The position numbers were made by a program, and so were the translations under genes. A stretch of 64,000 nt of DNA from Octopus vulgaris (taxonomy: Eukaryota): positions 50,468,001-50,532,000 of the forward strand of contig OX597816.1 of NCBI GenBank assembly GCA_951406725.2, in the 5' to 3' direction. Below the pieces are notes generated by a model. It worked only from the letters and a program-made list of their open reading frames with translations, was not told where the DNA came from and did no database searches. Shown here one piece after another: positions 7,753 through 54,218 of this stretch (position 1 is its first letter; every line of letters begins with the position of its first letter).

Positions 7753-7863
7753 AAGCCGACTACGGCTGCTATAATGGTACGATTACAATTGTAACGGCAA
7801 TGATGGCCGTCTCCCCACGAGCCAATCAAAGCTAAAAAATGATAACATTATCGTAGCACCAAA

Positions 7864-9165
7864 ATGTTTTTGGAAACTAAAAGGAAAACTATATCAGTAT
7901 ACCAAATCGCTTGTCCTATGATTAATCTGGAAGCGCGTCCCCCAGGGAAGAGCCAGCCTGGGATCGAAAAGTCATCAACTGGCACAAACTCTTCTCCGAA
8001 TACGGACATGGATGGTCACTTGAACGGGAAATCCCCCAACTCGAGCCCTCCAAGTTCACCACCACAACCACCACAGAAAGAAAAATGTAAGCGGAACAAA
8101 TGGACCCGAGAAGAGTATAAAGAAGTAATATACGCTTATTACTATGCATTAGGTAGGCCATCCCAAGAGAGACACACCGCAAACTCTTACAGTATATGGA
8201 GAACACGGAATCAAGACAGTAGGCCCTATTTGGACGAGAACAAATTAGCAAATGTGAGGGGGGATATCTTTAGAAATAACAGACTCACAGACAGTGAAAT
8301 AAGCGCGATCAAGCACGCAACGGAAAATGACATAAATATAAGACACAAAGGAAATGAAGAATCAGATGAACAGTATAGCCCGCCACGAGGCTTAATTGAA
8401 AGACTGCCATCTGACCAAAGTAGGCAAAGGCCTGAAGATACAAGAAATTCTATTGTACCAGTTAAAGATAGCCAGGAAAACGAAAAAACAACAGTAACTG
8501 AAGATCTCGCATTTGCTGAAGAACACAGAGAGTCTATGGCAGAAATGAGGCAGAAAATCCTGAATACGCTTGAAGTTGTAAGACATACAAGTATGAATGA
8601 TAGAGAACCGCTTCATAAACTCTCAAATACAAACCAAAATAAAAAACAAATCCAAATTGGCAACTATGTAACAAATGAAATAATACGAGAATTAAAACAT
8701 GATTTTACTGAGTTAAATGGAATTATTTACGCTTCTGCTAGGGCAATTGAAACCAGCTGTATGCCCCCGAAAAAACAAAGAAAACAAAACCTGGGAAGAA
8801 ATCAAACCTGGAGAAGTAAAATTGAAAAAGAGATTGAATTTATGAGAGGGGAAATATCAATATTAAATGAACTAATATGTGGAAATGATGTAAGATCCAG
8901 AACAGGAAGAAAGATGAAGAGAAAATTTGGATCCTCACCAAGAGAAGAACTGATATCAATAAAAGAAACGCTGAAACAAAAATTCCAAGCAAAAGCCCAA
9001 AGAATACGAATATTTGAGAAGAGAAACAAGTTTTACAAGCAAAATAAGCTGTTCACATCCAATGCCAAAAAATTCTACAGAGAAATAGGGAAGGAGAAAG
9101 TATCCATTAAAGACCCCCCCTCCCATGGAAGAAGTTCAAAACTTTTGGAAAAGGATTTGGAGTGA
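7864..9165 (+). pseudogene. N-terminal half of the retrotransposon ORF
   Basis: KWTREEYKEVIYAYY-like N-terminal motif and basic R4-type region QNKLFTSNAKKFYR. Shifts +1 at the C-run near 9114-9124 into the frame MEEVQNFWKRIWSD*, which is the frame of the RT ORF. Confidence 0.85.
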
Positions 9166-11530
9166 CTAGAAGACGTACAACATAAATGCAGACTGGATTA
9201 TACAAACTGAAGGATCCTACCAAAATTTACAACAAGCATGGGATGACATCACAATAGCAGACCTAAGAAAGGCACTCACGAAGGCCCATAATTGGAAATC
9301 CCCCGGTAAAGATAGGGTGCCGAACTTCTGGCTCGCATCGCTCCCATGCGCACACGGTAAGCTAGTTCAGCTGCTCAATGGAATTATTAGAGACCCAAAG
9401 AAAACACCTGAATGGTTAGCAAGTGGCATTACTTACCTACTCCCAAAAAATAACGAAACCAACCTTCCAAAAAGCTATCGGCCTATAACCTGTCTATCCA
9501 CCACGTATAAAATCCTAACATATGCATTCATGGAGAAGAACGATATTTTCCCCATTGAACAAAAAGGGTGCCGCCGAGTCTCTTACGGATGCAAAGATCA
9601 ACTGCTAATCAATCGTATGATCCTTGAGAACTGTCACAACAAGCGCAGAAATCTCAGCACCGCATGGATTGACTATGAAAAGGCCTTCGACAGTATACCG
9701 CATCCATGGATCTTGAGATCGCTGGACATCTTCAAAATTTCCCCTGTGATTTCAAACTTCCTGAAGCACAATATGTCGTTGCGGAATACGAATCTCCAAT
9801 TATACCACTCTAATGGAGTACTTGCCTCAGAAAATATAAACATCAACTGTGGAATTTTTCTAGGTGACTCACTTTTACCTTTAATATTCTGCATAGCCCT
9901 AATACCCCTTACAAGTGAATTAAACAGAACAGGGTATGGGTATAAAATTGCCAATAAAAAAATAAGCCATCTATTTTATATGGATGACTTAAAACTTTAT
10001 GGTAAAGTCAATAATGAACTTGAAGGCCTATTGCGCACCGTGAAAGCATTCAGCGATGACATCGGGATGGAGTTTGGACTTGAGAAGTGTGCCAAGGCCA
10101 CTTTCCAGAAAGGGAAAGTGAAGACCACAAATTCAGTCGTGTTAGATGTTGACACAGTCATAAGAGAGCTTGAGCAAGAACAAACATACAAATATTTAGG
10201 GATAAATGAAAGCTCTGGTATTCAGCATGCAAGCATGGAAGAGAAAATCAGGAAGGAATGTTATAGGAGAGTTCGTGCAGCCCTGAAATCTGAACTAAAT
10301 GCACGTAACAAGGTGTTAGCTATAAATTCCCTAGCAGTTTCAGTTGTTACTTATAGCTACAATGTGTTGAACTGGAATATGAGTGAAGTAAAGAATATAG
10401 ATAGAAAAATACGCAAGCTGCTGAGTTGTAATAGGATGCACCACCCAAAGGCAGACGTAGATCGCCTTTACCTTCCCAGAGCCCAAGGAGGTCGAGGCCT
10501 GATCCAATTTGAACTAGCTTACAAAACAACCACAATTGGACTGGCCAAATATCTCGAAATATCGAATGACTGGATGCTAAAGCTCGTGGAAAATCACGAG
10601 AGACGAAAGAAGCTCCATTCTATCATCAAGGAAAGCAACAAATTTGCTATTGATCTCGTGCAGGATACCCAAACTGAACAACCCGAGGGAAGTACGGCAA
10701 CTATTGTTGCAAAGAAGGTGAAAATGATGGCAATGAAAAAAGCGCACGAGCAATTGGCTGATAGGTGGGAGGAGAAACCTCTGCACGGCAAATATGTGAC
10801 CTGCAGCAAACAAGCTGATGTTGACCAGAAGCAAACCCATCAGTGGCTGCGGAGCTCAGGGCTAAAAGCAGAGAGCGAAGGTTTCATCCTGGCTGCTCAA
10901 GACCAAAGCCTATTAACCCGGAACTACCAGGCCAATGTGATGAAAAATGGAGCAGACCAAAAATGCCGATTCTGCAACGACATGATTAAAACAGTGGACC
11001 ACCTAATCTCTGGATGTAAAGTCTTAGCACCAGTGGAGTATAAATTAAGACATGACAGAATTGGCCAATATCTCCACTGGCTAATAAGTCGGCATTACAA
11101 TATCAAAACTGCCGACAAGTGGTATAATCACCACCCTGAGGCTGTAACTGAAGGAGAAAATGTAACCATTCTGTGGGACTTTCCAGTACATACAGACCGA
11201 ACCATCAAGGCCAATAAACCAGATATTGTTGTGAAAGACCAAAACAATAAAGTTTGCTTATTGATCGACATGAGCATCCCCTGTGATCATAATATCTTAG
11301 CGAAAGAGTTTGACAAGCTCAGAAAATATAAAGACCTACTCATTGAAATTGAGAAAATGTGGCATCTCAAGGCGGTTACAATACCAGTGATCGTAGGAGC
11401 ACTAGGAATGATCAAGAAGGGAACCGAAAATTATATGAGAATGATCCCTGGCTTACCATCCCTGCAAGAAGTGCAAAAGATTGTCTTAACTGGTACATCA
11501 CACGTATTGAGAAGAGCATTGTCGATGTGA
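9125..11530 (+). pseudogene. Reverse transcriptase + CCHC zinc finger + restriction-like endonuclease (in-frame TAG at 9167-9169)
   Basis: KSPGKD, YRPITCL, WIDYEKAFDS, GIFLGDSLLP (QGD motif altered), LFYMDDLKL, YKYLG, CRFC..HLISGC, RHD, KPDIVV..LIDMSIP..KLRKY. Confidence 0.93.
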
Positions 11531-13596: not shown

Positions 13597-13728
13597 TATT
13601 TATGAACAAATAGGGATCGTAAACAATTGTTTAAAAAGTTTTGTAGTTTAACTACTGATGATTAAGTCATGACAGATGATTAAATGAAACATTTGGCTAA
13701 CGTTGCTCACTGTCATGAAATACATACA

Positions 13729-13785
<57 letters not shown>

Positions 13786-13787
<2 letters not shown>

Positions 13788-14054
13788 TAACAATTGAGGA
13801 TAAAATCTTTAAAAGAAATTATCAGTAGTCAGCGTGAAAAACCTCGTAAGAGAAAAAATCCGTAAATTCTTCCTCTTTGAAAATATTCATTTATATTTTA
13901 TATTATATTGAGGGTACTACTATTCGTAGATACCAACACGCTAAGAGGGACCAATGTGGTCAAAACTACTAAAAATATTTTTAGTAGTTTTGACCACATT
14001 GGTCCCTCTTAGCGTGTTGGTATCTACGAATAGTAGTACCCTCAATATAATATA
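13786..14054. repeat. Inverted fragment of the 496-bp HHR unit, forming a perfect 156-bp palindrome (13899-14054)
   Basis: 13786-13976 is the reverse complement of the terminal segment of the 19244-20450 array. Centre AAAAAT|ATTTTT at 13976/13977. (TA)n on both sides. Confidence 0.95.
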
Positions 14055-14103
14055 TATATATATACATATATATATATACATATATATATACATACATATA
14101 TAT

Positions 14104-15004: not shown

Positions 15005-15241
15005 CGTTGTGAGTGTTTATTGAACGAAAACACCTAAAGCTCCACGAGCCTCCAGTAGGGGATGGAGGCGATCCCTGCTGTACTATTTCGCTACAACTTT
15101 CTCTCACTCTTTCTTCTCTTGGCCTGCGCGCTTAGTCAGTGGGGTAACGTCATTTGAAGGCTAAATCAATGCGAAGCACATTGTGACCATCGATGTGTAA
15201 CAACATCTGATAGCGTATTCAGTCACGGTGATCACGGTGAT
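15005..15241 (+). mobile_element. SINE family C, 5'-truncated
   Basis: Matches the reverse complement of 18216-18508. Tail of CACGGTGAT repeats. Confidence 0.85.
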
Positions 15242-16024
15242 ATCTACCCGATCTCATCGTCAGTGTGTTAGCGTAATTAGTTATAGTACTACAGGCAGTT
15301 AATATAATGACAATCTCAAGTCTAGATAAATCAGATTTGTATTTGACGAATGTAGGTGCTTATTGGCTTGATAGTTGAATAGTAATTAAAGATATCTAGT
15401 TGTACAAACTTACTACACTTTTTCCAGGCTGTTGAACCAACTAATAACATCTAGTGTATCCAACCATAGCGTAATTTAATTAAAGATCTTAGAGTAGGTA
15501 AAGTTCTATCTATAATTATCTGATCGATTCGACCAACGATAGATATAGATGGCCATATCAGTCTAGTCGTTGGATCACTGTGCAACTTAATTTTATGGTA
15601 CTTAAGATAAATTGTAGGTTTTCTAAGTGTATATGGTTTGATCTTTCCCCTATACATAATTCCGTAACTATTTCATGTACCCTTCTATCTATGTTAGCTT
15701 GTGTTTCCCGTGTAGTATGTTTGTATACACTATTTCTGCCATAGAAAGCTTTTTATATATTTAATGTTAACATCATGTAGATTTCCAATTTTCTTCACAC
15801 ACACATACACGCATACTTACACACACACACACACACACACAGAGACACACATATATGTAACCATATCTTATCATATATCATATCAAGCAGCAGGGGTTAT
15901 ATAATCAGCTTCAATACCTTACAGTTGTTTCTGCTTCAAAATGCAGTGCACTCAGAGATGAGAGATTGTGTAACATCCTCTAACTTTCTTAGAATTATTA
16001 AATTGATGTGTGTGTGTTTTTGTG

Positions 16025-16930: not shown

Positions 16931-17122
16931 AAGGCGACGAGCTGGCAGAATGGTTAGCGACCTTTCGTCTTACTTTAAGTTTTGAGTTCAAATTCCGCCG
17001 AGGACGACTTGGCTTTCATGCTTTAGTGGTCGATAAAGTAAGTACTAGTTGAGCACCGGGGTCGATGTAATGGACTAGCCTCTCTCCCAAAGTTGCTGGC
17101 TTCGCGTTAAAGTTTGAAGCCA
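16931..17122 (+). mobile_element. SINE family A copy
   Basis: AAGGCGACGAGCTGGCAGAATGGTTAGC ... GAGTTCAAATTCCGCCGAGG ... GGGGTCGATGTAAT. A more decayed copy follows to about 17330. Confidence 0.85.
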
Positions 17123-18162: not shown

Positions 18163-18215
<53 letters not shown>

Positions 18216-18217
<2 letters not shown>

Positions 18218-18508
18218 CACCGTGACCACCGTGACGACCAGGCTATCAGATGTTGCTACACATCGCTGGTCACAATGCGCTTCGCATTGTTTTAGCCTTC
18301 AAACGACACCACCCCACTGGCTAAGCGAACAGGCCAACAAAGGTGTGAGAGAAAGTTGTAGCGAAAGAGTACAGCAGTGATCGCCACCACCCCTGCCAGA
18401 GCCTCGTGGAGCTTTAGGTGTTTTCGCTCAATAAACACTCACAACGCACGGTCTGGGAATCGAAACCACGAATCCGCTGCCCTAACCACTGGGCCATTGC
18501 GCCTCCAC
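18216..18508 (-). mobile_element. SINE family C, near full length, tRNA-derived head
   Basis: Minus strand reads GTGGAGGCGCAATGGCCCAGTGGTTAGG (A box) ... GGTTTCGATTCCC (B box). Short CACGGT-repeat tail. Confidence 0.88.
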
Positions 18509-18519
18509 GTATATGTATA

Positions 18520-18563
<44 letters not shown>

Positions 18564-18697
18564 ATGAGGGTGTCTCAAAGACACCAACATGCCGAAATAG
18601 CAGTCGAAACACTGACTATAGTACCACGTTAAATGTTCATATCGCACCATGAGGCAAAGCGGAGGGACAAAACATACAAGCAAAAATTATTGAATAA

Positions 18698-18755
18698 TTC
18701 AAGATCCAAGGATTTCTGGTTCTGCTTTAGATAAGCTTTACCGTCATCAATTGAA
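18698..18755 (-). ncRNA. Type I hammerhead ribozyme-like motif (C3U core variant)
   Basis: UUCAA-UUGAUGA-C-GGU..ACC-A-GAAA-UCC-UU-GGA-UC-UUGAA. Stem I UUCAA/UUGAA, stem III AUCC/GGAU, AUC cleavage triplet. Confidence 0.65.
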
Positions 18756-18904
18756 TATATCAAGGGTACATCAATACAGATATATATATGCACAGCAAAC
18801 GATATACTTACATATACGAGCGTCGTACATACATACATATGCACGTATGGATGATACTCCGGTATCGTTTCTGCATCTAGTTCAGCAGATTTCATTCATA
18901 TCGG

Positions 18905-18969
18905 TCATGCTGACGAAGACTACGGGTATCCTTACGGATAATAATAGTCGAAACTGTTTCAGTACATGA
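18905..18969 (+). ncRNA. Type I hammerhead ribozyme, intact core
   Basis: UCAUG-CUGACGA-A-GACUA-(22 nt incl. UAUCC/GGAUA hairpin)-UAGUC-GAAA-CUG-UUU-CAG-UA-CAUGA. All three stems are Watson-Crick. Predicted cleavage after GUA (A18964). Confidence 0.88.
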
Positions 18970-19203
18970 ATGAGTATTATTTTTCGTATATTTTCACTTG
19001 TTTATTGCTTGGGTTGGTGTTGAGTTTGATCTGAGAACATAATATTTTGTGGAGAATGGCAATTTGACGTCTATAACTAGCATGTTGACTGTCCACTTTT
19101 TCGTGTTCAGTCTTTAAATGGTATATATAAATATTTAATCTTCGGATTTTTTTAATATGTTAGACCACTGGTTTCAATTGATAAATATTGATTTCTACCC
19201 TTA

Positions 19204-19246
<43 letters not shown>

Positions 19247-19649
19247 AAGTTTTGCATTCGGTAAAATTTTGTTTATTTTTAGTAGTTTTGACCGCATTGG
19301 TCCCTCTTAGCGTGTTGGTATCTACGAATAGTAATACCCTCAATATAATATAAATGAATATTTTCAAAGAGGAAGAATTTACGAATTTTTTCTCTTACGA
19401 GGTTTTTCACGCTGACTACTGATAATTTCTTTTAAAGATTTTAGCCTCAATTGTTAATTTATATTTTTCACCGGAATAGTTCAATACTGAATATTTATTC
19501 CGACTAGGCAATTTGTACCGAAATGCATTGCGAAAAAGCCCGCCATTTTGCTAGACATGTAAAGATAAACATTCGTACAAGCTACGACGAATTCTACGGT
19601 TGGCTATCGAGTTTGTAATGTTATGTTCTTTCTTATATTTCTTGAGTTT

Positions 19650-19713
19650 GTTGCACTGACGAACATGAAATGCATATTCTGCATTAAATGCGAAATCACA
19701 TGTGATATGTAAC
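19650..19713 (+). ncRNA. Type I hammerhead ribozyme, unit 1 of array
   Basis: GUUGCA-CUGACGA-...-GAAA-UCAC-AU-GUGA-UA-UGUAAC. Stem I GUUGCA/UGUAAC, palindromic stem III AUCACAUGUGAU, AUA triplet (cleavage after 19707). Stem II pairing is ambiguous. Confidence 0.78.
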
Positions 19714-20145
19714 TGAATTCTTTTTTAAAATGATGTGTTTTGAAGTTTTGCATTCGGTAAAATTTTGTTTATTTTTAGTAGTTTTGACCGCATTGGTCCC
19801 TCTTAGCGTGTTGGTATCTACGAATAGTAGTCCCCTCAATATAATATAAATGAATATTTTCAAAGAGGAAGAATTTACGGATTTTTTCTCTTACGAGGTT
19901 TTTCACGCTGACTACTGATAATTTCTTTTAAAAATTTTATCCTCAATTGTTAATTTATATTTTTCACCGGAATAGTTCAATACTGAATTTTTATTCCGAC
20001 TAGGCAATTTGTACCGAAATGCATTGCGAAAAAGCCCGCCATTTTCATAGACATGTAAGGATAAACATTCGTACAAGCTACGACGAATTCTACGGTTGGC
20101 TATCGAGTTTGTAATGTTATGTTCTTTCTTATATTTCTTGAGTTT

Positions 20146-20209
20146 GTTGCACTGACGAATATGCAATGCATATTCTGCATTAAATGCGAAATCACGTGTG
20201 ATATGTAAC
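20146..20209 (+). ncRNA. Type I hammerhead ribozyme, unit 2 of array
   Basis: Same motif 496 bp downstream. Stem III AUCAC-GU-GUGAU. Cleavage predicted after 20203. Confidence 0.78.
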
Positions 20210-20445
20210 TGAATTCTTTTTTAAAATGATGTGTTTTGAAGTTTTGCATTCGGTAAAATTTTGTTTATTTTTAGTAGTTTTCACCGCATTGGTCCCTCTT
20301 AGCGTGTTGGTATCTACGAATAGTCGTCCCCTCAATATAATATAAATGAATATTTTCAAAGAGGAAGAATTTACGGATTTTTTCTCTTACGAGGTTTTTC
20401 ACGCTGACTACTGATAATTTCTTTTAAAGATTTTATCCTCAATTG

Positions 20446-20500
<55 letters not shown>

Positions 20501-37364: not shown

Positions 37365-37677
37365 AATATTTGTTGTGCAAGATTTTTTATGTGAAGTCGT
37401 GTGTTGAAACAGATATTGTCATATTTCGGAATGGTCATTTTGCCAGTTTAGCCAATAAAAACACACGCACTATATATTTGGTGTTACTTTGCTTCAGTGT
37501 TATTTATTTTTTACATTAATCTTAATCTTATTTCGGGCAGAGTTCTTTCGTCACACTCATGTGACCGCATCAGTGGTCCTTTGTTTTCTTCTTACTTATT
37601 TGTGTCTCTCCTTACCAACCGTCAGCCATGTGGTTTTTTTTGCTAAACTGACAAAATGACCATTCCGAAATATAACA

Positions 37678-48649: not shown

Positions 48650-48724
<75 letters not shown>

Positions 48725-48726
<2 letters not shown>

Positions 48727-48945
48727 TACTATAAAATGTGACCGCGTGTGTACCGTTGGCGACTTTTTTCCCCCGTCTTCCCTTCTCTGGATCTTTCCTT
48801 TTCCTATGTTTCTGACGAAGAGCTCCGCTCGAAACGTAAAACCCTCCTTCTTCCTTTCCTTCCTGAGCGTCCAATAATACTATATTTGTTCCACGTCCTC
48901 GCGTTGTTGTGTTTTCTCTTTGTGATTTCATGTTTGGATTAACTT

Positions 48946-48946
<1 letters not shown>
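48725..48946 (+). mobile_element. Short (TA)n-flanked ORF-less module carrying a minimal hammerhead
   Basis: A 220-bp non-microsatellite island between two (TA)n tracts. Related to 12394-12568. Confidence 0.75.
48808..48842 (+). ncRNA. Minimal type I hammerhead ribozyme (Penelope pLTR-type)
   Basis: GUUU-CUGACGA-A-GAGC-UCC-GCUC-GAAAC-GUA-AAAC. Stem I GUUU/AAAC, stem II GAGC/GCUC, stem III reduced to palindrome ACGU. Confidence 0.85.
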
Positions 48947-49016
<70 letters not shown>

Positions 49017-53999: not shown

Positions 54000-54218
54000 A
54001 ATAGTTGATCGTTAGCAAGGAAAGACACGCATATAAGAAAGAAGAAAGCAAAGGACCACTGATGAGGCCACAGAAGTGTGACGAAAGGACTCTGGCCGGA
54101 AGAATACGATTAATGTAAAAAATAAAATAAAACTGAAGCAAATTAACACCAAATATAGAGTGCGTGTGTTTTTATTGGTTAAAATGTCAACATGACCATC
54201 CCTAAATACAACAATATA
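54000..54218 (+). mobile_element. HHR module, same family as 37365-37682
   Basis: AAAGGACCACTGATG..GTGTGACGAAAG..CTGAAGCAAA..ACACCAAATATA..GTGCGTGTGTTTTTATTGG is shared with the reverse complement of 37410-37640. Confidence 0.8.
54056..54095 (+). ncRNA. Minimal type I hammerhead ribozyme
   Basis: CCA-CUGAUGA-G-GCCAC-AGAAGU-GUGAC-GAAA-G-GA-C-UC-UGG. CUC triplet, one stem II mismatch. Confidence 0.72.

What the first reader, a model, noticed from the sequence alone, without database searches (positions are those of the whole stretch)
18905..18969. Textbook monomeric type I hammerhead with an extra A after the core
Seen: stems of 5, 5 and 4 bp, all Watson-Crick, an invariant CUGACGA/GAAA core and a GUA triplet. 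One unpaired A (18917) lies between A9 and stem II. The same extra nucleotide appears in the unrelated motifs at 48808 (A) and 54056 (G), suggesting a conserved core variant rather than decay. This is the best candidate for activity as a monomer because stem III has a real loop.
Basis: partly seen in the sequence, partly recalled or inferred. Interest (0 to 1): 0.7.

Follow-up and report, generated by a model that had tools for sequence, protein, structure and literature searches.

The report
Penelope-type hammerhead ribozyme in animal repeat
A 65-base stretch inside a dispersed repeat has every core letter and all three stems of a self-cutting hammerhead RNA, and its 'extra' A is a published hallmark of the hammerheads of Penelope-like jumping genes, so it is likely an ordinary relic of that kind, whose cutting as a single copy is untested and predicted to be hindered by misfolding.

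Summary
The motif is real. 18905-18969 (+) is the only complete type I hammerhead in the window: stems of 5/5/4 Watson-Crick pairs, intact core, GUA site, one extra A (18917). None of 300 shuffled windows held one as good. Related contigs in 3 of 4 laid runs show no change at any core position, extra A included, and carry C-G where this copy has U-A at the end of stem I.

The extra nucleotide is not new. It is part of the published consensus of Penelope-like-element (PLE) hammerheads (CUGANGAH; PMC4209133) and occurs in a viroid ribozyme. The motif fits that consensus, and PLE hammerheads with a real helix III are also published.

The 'best monomer' claim is weak. Helix III is only -0.5 kcal/mol and near-palindromic, and forming the junction costs 2-8 kcal/mol against core-blocking folds, versus 0.4-1.2 for phage look-alikes. 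No PLE reading frame was found nearby and no genome is held, so the parent element is unidentified. Verdict: new member of a known kind, low interest.

The parts
18905..18969 (+). type I hammerhead ribozyme motif (whole)
   Evidence: descriptor scan, sole hit; 0 of 300 shuffles as good
18905..18909 (+). stem I, 5' strand (pairs with 18965-18969); terminal pair is U-A here and C-G in all laid contigs that cover it
18910..18916 (+). core box C3-A9 (CUGACGA)
   Evidence: no change listed
18917..18917 (+). extra unpaired A between A9 and G10.1, the H of the published PLE consensus CUGANGAH
   Evidence: no change listed
18918..18949 (+). long helix II: 5 bp, 4x4 internal loop (18923-26/18941-44), 5 bp, UUAC tetraloop
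   Evidence: pair probabilities 0.9-1.0 in 18888-18980; A18919G (keeps G-U) and G18924A (internal loop) in related contigs
18950..18953 (+). core box G12-A15.1 (GAAA)
18953..18963 (+). helix III, 4 bp plus 3-nt loop, near-palindromic; loop starts with A in related contigs, which lengthens the palindrome
   Evidence: hairpin -0.5 kcal/mol, self-duplex -6.9 kcal/mol; T18957A in all laid contigs covering it
18962..18965 (+). GUA triplet and predicted cleavage site between A18964 and C18965
   Evidence: hammerhead numbering (established knowledge); not tested
18894..18904 (+). possible extension of stem I (18894-99 with 18970-75) and 5-nt bulge; the same bases also form the predicted inactive folds
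   Evidence: C18897T and G18972A occur in related contigs but were not shown together in one contig
18858..19011 (+). ribozyme-bearing module of about 155 bp, at much lower read depth than its flanks
   Evidence: contig 15 of run X13 spans exactly this; one X1 contig joins 18854 to 19020 with 33 other letters between
18557..19211 (.). composite repeat of about 650 bp between two (TA)n tracts (18527-18556, 19212-19243); both flanks of the ribozyme are highly repeated
   Evidence: no second copy in the window

Best explanation
This is a type I hammerhead motif with the core, extra nucleotide and U-rich/AU-rich flanks of published Penelope-like-element (PLE) hammerheads, sitting in a repeated segment between (TA)n tracts, and it is likely the ribozyme of a truncated or non-autonomous PLE terminal repeat that would cut its own RNA after A18964. 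Mechanism: in the parent element the transcript runs through the terminal repeat, the three stems dock, and G12/G8 general base/acid chemistry cleaves after the GUA (standard hammerhead chemistry, from knowledge; not tested), trimming the retroelement RNA out of a longer precursor. The extra A is a tolerated bulge at the foot of helix II. Helix III is a near-palindrome, so two neighbouring copies could pair it between them (dimer mode, as proposed for metazoan PLE hammerheads), while a lone copy could fold it only weakly. This solitary copy is predicted to spend most of its time in core-blocking folds and to cut slowly, if transcribed at all. Shown: sequence, rarity, repeated nature, conserved core, one compensatory pair. 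Inferred: PLE parentage, cleavage, dimer preference.
For: Sole descriptor hit, 0 of 300 shuffles. Fits the published consensus 'U-rich ... CUGANGAH G...C GAAAN Palind NU H ... AU-rich' (PMC4209133 suppl. Fig. S3); the same CUGACGAA-G core is printed there for PLE hammerheads of Acropora and sea urchin, and the Hydra PLE hammerhead has a helix III with an AUU loop and a GUA site. Of 5 variable sites listed inside the motif, 0 are in the 14 core positions and none breaks a pair; 18905 and 18969 change together, both within single contig 15 of X13; chance that two of three random sites are helix partners is about 0.027. 1077, 531, 122 and 1 contigs of the 4 runs lie on the 641-bp stretch. Two other motifs in the window are classic minimal PLE-type hammerheads with the same extra nucleotide. 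(TA)n is the reported target of Hydra- and Naiad-clade PLEs. Junction cost 2.2-8.1 kcal/mol over 50 transcript boundaries versus 0.39-1.19 for two phage motifs with long helix III.
Against: No PLE reverse transcriptase or GIY-YIG remnant in 43 of the 75 frames of 45 aa or more between 14.5 and 24 kb that were scanned, and no genome is held, so the link to a PLE is by motif signature only. No Rfam hammerhead family matches, even at E up to 10, though Rfam also missed the phage look-alikes. The compensatory change is a single event (this copy against all laid contigs), and only contigs 80% alike or more were laid, which favours conservation. The extra A with a long helix III also occurs in phage contigs, so the signature is not unique to PLEs. 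(TA)n tracts are everywhere in this window. Nearest-neighbour energies ignore tertiary contacts and Mg2+, so the misfolding prediction may overstate the problem.
Confidence: 0.68

Rival explanations
1. An efficient monomeric ribozyme: the 4-bp helix III and a tertiary contact between the stem I bulge and the helix II internal loop let one copy cut fast at physiological Mg2+, as in fungal and protist PLE hammerheads. This is compatible with PLE origin and differs only in mode.
For: Helix III has 4 WC pairs and a closable loop, one pair more than the longest metazoan examples I read in Fig. S3 of PMC4209133. The hammerhead fold of the 65-mer is only 0.9 kcal/mol above the minimum. A fungal PLE hammerhead with a large helix III cuts as a monomer, 0.16 per min at 1 mM Mg2+. 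An extra A lowers the rate only moderately in CChMVd (review).
Against: Helix III hairpin is -0.5 kcal/mol versus -7.5 and -8.9 for the phage motifs. The exact hammerhead fold has probability 0.012 in the 65-mer and stem I about 0 in 18888-18980. No pseudoknot longer than 5 bp between the 5' flank and the helix II interior, and those found compete with the outer stem. Related copies make helix III more palindromic, not longer.
Confidence: 0.2
2. A stray unit of a non-LTR retrozyme: a short tandem repeat whose hammerheads cut out unit-length RNAs that circularise, as in mussels, corals and axolotl.
For: Type I hammerheads in molluscs usually lie in such repeats, and the mussel ones lack the usual loop-loop nucleotides (PMC7229834). 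The motif is repeated and non-coding. A guessed-RNA run holds a contig across it.
Against: No second copy in 64 kb; the 496-bp tandem next door has no hammerhead core; no joint that goes back on the stretch in 4 of 4 runs; canonical retrozyme hammerheads have a 4-bp helix II and no extra nucleotide is described for them in the passages read.
Confidence: 0.08
3. A host-domesticated ribozyme at this locus that cuts an intron or a non-coding transcript for the benefit of the animal.
For: The motif is intact and this copy keeps the terminal stem I pair through a double change.
Against: It lies in a high-copy repeat among other repeats; no host gene was identified around it; no evidence of transcription of this copy.
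Confidence: 0.03
4. A chance match to the hammerhead pattern.
For: No Rfam match; the fold z-score of 18890-18990 is only -1.38.
Against: 0 of 300 shuffles as good; compensatory pair and invariant core in related contigs; fits the published PLE consensus including flanks.
Confidence: 0.01

Closest known systems
Hammerheads of metazoan Penelope-like elements (Cervera and De la Pena 2014, PMC4209133), especially the variants with a small palindromic helix III (Hydra Poseidon, Aedes, Saccoglossus 2, Drosophila willistoni)
   Same: Type I topology; CUGANGAH core with an unpaired nucleotide before G10.1; G10.1-C11.1; short helix I (5 bp); palindromic helix III; U-rich 5' and AU-rich 3' flanks; dispersed single copies; the Hydra example has an AUU loop and GUA site like the relatives of this motif.
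   Different: Helix III is 4 bp plus 3-nt loop (published metazoan examples read: 0-3 bp); helix II is 32 nt with an internal loop (up to about 23 nt in the rows read); no PLE reading frame found next to it.
Chrysanthemum chlorotic mottle viroid (+) hammerhead (De la Pena and Flores 2001, seen through review PMC3705267)
   Same: Extra A between A9 and G10.1 in an active ribozyme.
   Different: Viroid RNA with defined loop 1-loop 2 contacts; not a genomic repeat.
Fungal, protist and prokaryotic/phage type I hammerheads with a large helix III (PMC4209133; PMC3088659; L082, L083, L104, L105 found here)
   Same: Type I with a closed helix III and no recognisable canonical tertiary contact; the phage motifs found here also carry the extra A.
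   Different: Their helix III is far more stable (-7.5 to -8.9 kcal/mol for the two computed) and the junction is predicted to form freely.
Metazoan non-LTR retrozymes (Cervera and De la Pena 2020, PMC7229834)
   Same: Type I hammerhead in a non-coding repeat of an animal genome.
   Different: Retrozymes are head-to-tail tandems of about 220-390 bp that make circular RNA; this copy is solitary.

Membership tests
Type I hammerhead ribozyme | Core CUGANGA, GAAA and NUH in order | tested here: met
   18910-16, 18950-53, 18962-64
Type I hammerhead ribozyme | Three helices around the core, ends in helix I, G10.1-C11.1 and A15.1-U16.1 | tested here: met
   5/5/4 WC pairs
Type I hammerhead ribozyme | Stems kept among homologues by compensatory change | tested here: met
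   One double change 18905/18969, one G-U-keeping change, loop changes, no core change listed; a single event, few contigs
Type I hammerhead ribozyme | Match to an Rfam hammerhead model | tested here: inconclusive
   No match, but 0 of 3 control loci with hammerhead-like motifs matched either
Type I hammerhead ribozyme | Site-specific self-cleavage | not testable with these tools
   Only assembled contigs were offered; they cannot show RNA ends
Type I hammerhead ribozyme | Tertiary contact between helices I and II (loop-loop or pseudoknot) | tested here: inconclusive
   No pseudoknot over 5 bp from the 5' flank; bulge and internal loop exist but no known motif recognised
PLE-type hammerhead motif | Consensus CUGANGAH, G...C helix II, GAAAN-palindrome-NUH, U-rich and AU-rich flanks | tested here: met
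   Compared by eye with suppl. Fig. S3 of PMC4209133
Penelope-like element | RT (and GIY-YIG) reading frame next to the ribozyme-bearing terminal repeat | tested here: not met
   None in 43 of 75 frames scanned between 14.5 and 24 kb; so not filed as a PLE, only as PLE-like. Most published motifs are also solitary
Penelope-like element | Other copies of the motif attached to a full PLE | not testable with these tools
   No genome held; metagenome scan gave 2 chance hits in coding DNA
Minimal hammerhead (min-HHR) | No real helix III or loop 3 | tested here: not met
   4 bp plus loop here; the 48812 motif does meet it
Non-LTR retrozyme | Head-to-tail tandem units each with a hammerhead | tested here: not met
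   No second copy in window; no going-back joint
Non-LTR retrozyme | Circular RNA monomers | not testable with these tools
   No raw reads offered

The most novel reading that the evidence does not exclude
A family of non-autonomous PLE-derived repeats in a cephalopod-like genome carries a switchable hammerhead. It can cut as a monomer through a 4-bp helix III and a new tertiary contact between the stem I bulge and the helix II internal loop, but it is held off by built-in anti-core pairings (the upstream hairpin and the CUGA-complementary strand of helix III) until a second copy or a cut 5' end releases it.
Probability: 0.1. Interest if true: 0.55.

Novelty: new member of a known kind. Interest (0 to 1): 0.24.

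Why it matters
It adds one well-formed example to a known class. Its modest value: it sits between the minimal, dimer-dependent metazoan PLE hammerheads and the monomeric fungal ones, so a monomer-versus-dimer assay on it would bear on why PLE ribozymes cut so poorly in vitro and what the extra nucleotide does. It also shows that Rfam misses intact hammerheads of this shape. Two searches of the held library listed no paper devoted to octopus hammerheads, judged from titles and abstract starts; most subscription papers are not held.

Tried and rejected
Own genome: none held, so no copy count or parent element. Rfam: 0 matches at gathering score in the window; 14 matches at E up to 10 in 18500-19300, none a ribozyme. 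Metagenome scan with the family pattern: 2 loci, the same coding-like sequence with no stems I or III, rejected as chance. Viral scan with a looser pattern: 116 loci, of which 5 passed the full descriptor; 4 are convincing (L082, L083, L104, L105), L118 is weak, none is homologous to the window. Pfam on 43 of 75 nearby frames: no hit above a cut-off. Terminal inverted repeats joining the two ends of the 650-bp segment: none found, so a MITE reading was dropped. The 496-bp tandem as a retrozyme array: no core in it. Expression: run X13 is only guessed to be RNA and its contig across the cleavage site cannot show ends or strand; the one recorded RNA run (X20) does not cover the motif; neither is used as evidence. 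Covariation in the stem I extension: C18897T and G18972A both occur, but contig 15 of X13 has the second without the first, so inconclusive. Earlier findings by sequence and by place: none. Lunse et al. 2016 on dimeric PLE hammerheads is not held; I saw it only as cited in PMC6765202. PMC6155905, PMC3376415 and PMC9608096 gave only the citation of the 2001 paper or nothing relevant.

Full report
Setting. The window is AT-rich (GC about 0.29-0.39 in most 2-kb bins), full of (TA)n and related microsatellites, with few long frames and one LINE-like reverse transcriptase at 7846-11530 (Pfam RVT_1, E 3.5e-24). It reads as repeat-rich animal DNA. That it resembles an octopus genome is my recollection of such repeats, not a tool result; no genome is held and the sequencing runs are coded.

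Observation. The sequence at 18905-18969 is as described. A type I descriptor (stems at least 4/3/3, G-U allowed, 0 or 1 extra nucleotide) finds exactly one hit on both strands of the window, this one, with stems 5/5/4 and one extra A. In 300 block-wise dinucleotide shuffles the mean number of loose hits was 0.03 per window and 0 of 300 had a hit with 5/5/4 Watson-Crick stems. Numbering: C3 18910, A9 18916, extra A 18917, G10.1 18918, C11.1 18949, G12 18950, A15.1 18953, U16.1 18963, A17 18964. Helix I can extend by 6 pairs past a 5-nt bulge. Rfam gives no hammerhead match, but it also misses three control loci with hammerhead-like motifs (0 of 3), so this says little.

The two companion motifs. 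At 48812 there is a core with extra A, 4-bp stem II and the palindrome ACGU in place of helix III: a minimal hammerhead. At 54059 the extra G was not confirmed by the strict scan, but a second copy at about 37.5 kb on the minus strand has a perfect 6-bp stem II behind the same G; each of the two copies carries its own lesion. So three unrelated motif families in one window have the extra nucleotide.

Relatives. 20 of 24 listed runs, from 12 studies, hold part of 18560-19200, none half of the words or more. I laid 4 of them at 80% likeness: 1077, 531, 122 and 1 contigs lay on the stretch. Depth is very high on both flanks (X1: about 29,000-189,000 over 18560-18845 and 75,000-755,000 over 19000-19131) and far lower on the motif (555-2321). 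The tool warns that depth is no copy number, but the pattern points to a lower-copy ribozyme module of about 155 bp between high-copy repeats; one contig joins 18854 to 19020 with other letters between. Three of the 4 runs cover the motif (X1, X4, X13). Five differences are listed inside it: T18905C and A18969G (all depth in all three runs; both in contig 15 of X13), which swap the terminal U-A pair of stem I for C-G; A18919G, which keeps a G-U pair; G18924A in the internal loop; T18957A in loop 3. None is in the 14 core positions, the extra A included. The chance that two of the three majority differences are helix partners is about 0.027 before asking that they restore the pair. Limits: it is one event, contigs drop rare variants, and the likeness filter favours conserved copies. 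No joint goes back on the stretch, and blastn finds no second copy in the window.

What is known. [quoted passage not shown] This motif fits every term. Their alignment has the same CUGACGAA-G core in Acropora and sea urchin PLEs, and real helices III in Hydra (AUU loop, GUA site), Aedes and Saccoglossus. They report that most motifs are solitary, probably truncated PLEs, that minimal ones need dimers and cut poorly, and that a fungal one with a large helix III cuts as a monomer. The extra A was first described in the CChMVd (+) ribozyme, where it lowers the trans-cleavage rate moderately (review PMC3705267, passages). Craig et al. 2021 (PMC8557442, passages and a supplement search) give (TA)n as the target of Hydra- and Naiad-clade PLEs. 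A 2026 annotation of Octopus vulgaris lists 31 recently active Penelope-like families and does not contain the word ribozyme (PMC13282606, passages). Retrozymes are tandem and make circles (PMC7229834, passages). Perreault et al. 2011 (PMC3088659, passages and section 8) discuss other core insertions. My own viral scan found the same architecture, extra A plus long helix III, as pairs 756 bp apart in two viral contigs (4 convincing of 116 loci), so the signature is neither new nor confined to PLEs.

Monomer or not. Helix III here is worth -0.5 kcal/mol as a hairpin and -6.9 as a self-duplex; relatives have A at 18957, which by inspection makes 10 of its 11 positions self-complementary. Its 5' strand repeats the CUG of the core, so its 3' strand can pair with the core instead; this is the minimum-energy fold of the 65-mer (-14.5 versus -13.6 for the hammerhead, exact fold probability 0.012). 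With upstream sequence a hairpin over 18901-18913 and a slipped helix I take over (-21.9 versus -17.0). Over 50 combinations of transcript ends the junction costs 2.2-8.1 kcal/mol; the two phage motifs cost 0.39-1.19. These energies ignore tertiary contacts and Mg2+, so monomer cleavage is not excluded, but the real loop alone does not make the case.

Parent element. No RT or GIY-YIG remnant was found in 43 of the 75 frames of at least 45 aa between 14.5 and 24 kb. The segment lies between (TA)n tracts at 18527-18556 and 19212-19243 and has no terminal inverted repeats joining its ends. I therefore file it as a type I hammerhead of PLE type, not as a proven PLE.

Mechanism and verdict. Most likely (0.68) it is the ribozyme of a truncated or non-autonomous PLE terminal repeat, which would cut after A18964 to trim element RNA, best when two copies share helix III; this lone copy is predicted to be mostly misfolded. 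An efficient monomer (0.2), a retrozyme unit (0.08), a domesticated ribozyme (0.03) and chance (0.01) are the rivals. Shown: anatomy, rarity, repetition, core conservation, one compensatory pair. Inferred: parentage, cleavage, mode. Earlier scan notes on PLE-type hammerheads with an extra nucleotide in other genomes are unchecked and were not used as support. Novelty: new member of a known kind. Interest 0.24.

Noticed in passing
window 7846-11530 (+): Two long frames (439 and 786 aa) offset near 9165 encode a LINE-type reverse transcriptase (Pfam RVT_1 E 3.5e-24, weak zf-RVT). The layout recalls Dong/R4 elements (recalled, not tested). No similarity to the ribozyme segment.
   Followed up: partly
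window 48724-48949 (+), core at 48812: Minimal hammerhead with extra A, 4-bp stem II and ACGU palindrome, in a short segment between two (TA)n tracts; typical PLE minimal motif.
   Followed up: partly
window 54011-54217 (+) and 37413-37619 (-): Two copies (85% alike) of a repeat with a hammerhead that has an extra G and a 2-bp helix III; one copy has a stem II mismatch, the other a change at A9.
   Followed up: yes
window 19244-20456: Tandem of 2.4 units of 496 bp, 97% alike, directly after the (TA)n tract that ends the ribozyme segment; part of the unit recurs at 13720-14069 as an inverted pair. No hammerhead core, no Rfam match.
   Followed up: partly
L082/L083 and L104/L105 (two IMG/VR viral contigs): Pairs of perfect type I hammerheads with the extra A and 5-7 bp helix III, 756 bp apart, which could cut out the RNA between them; Rfam found nothing in L082 and L083.
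   Followed up: partly
window 18569-18585: 7-bp hairpin with a 3-nt loop 13 bases inside the left end of the 650-bp segment; role unknown.
   Followed up: no
window 18596-18610: 13 of 15 letters match the 3' side of helix II plus GAAAC of the ribozyme (18940-18954), with no CUGA box upstream (blast E about 0.6); probably chance or an old remnant.
   Followed up: no
window 16949-17122 and 18214-18446: Short interspersed repeats with further copies in the window (many for the first, one at 15005-15243 for the second), SINE-like by appearance.
   Followed up: no
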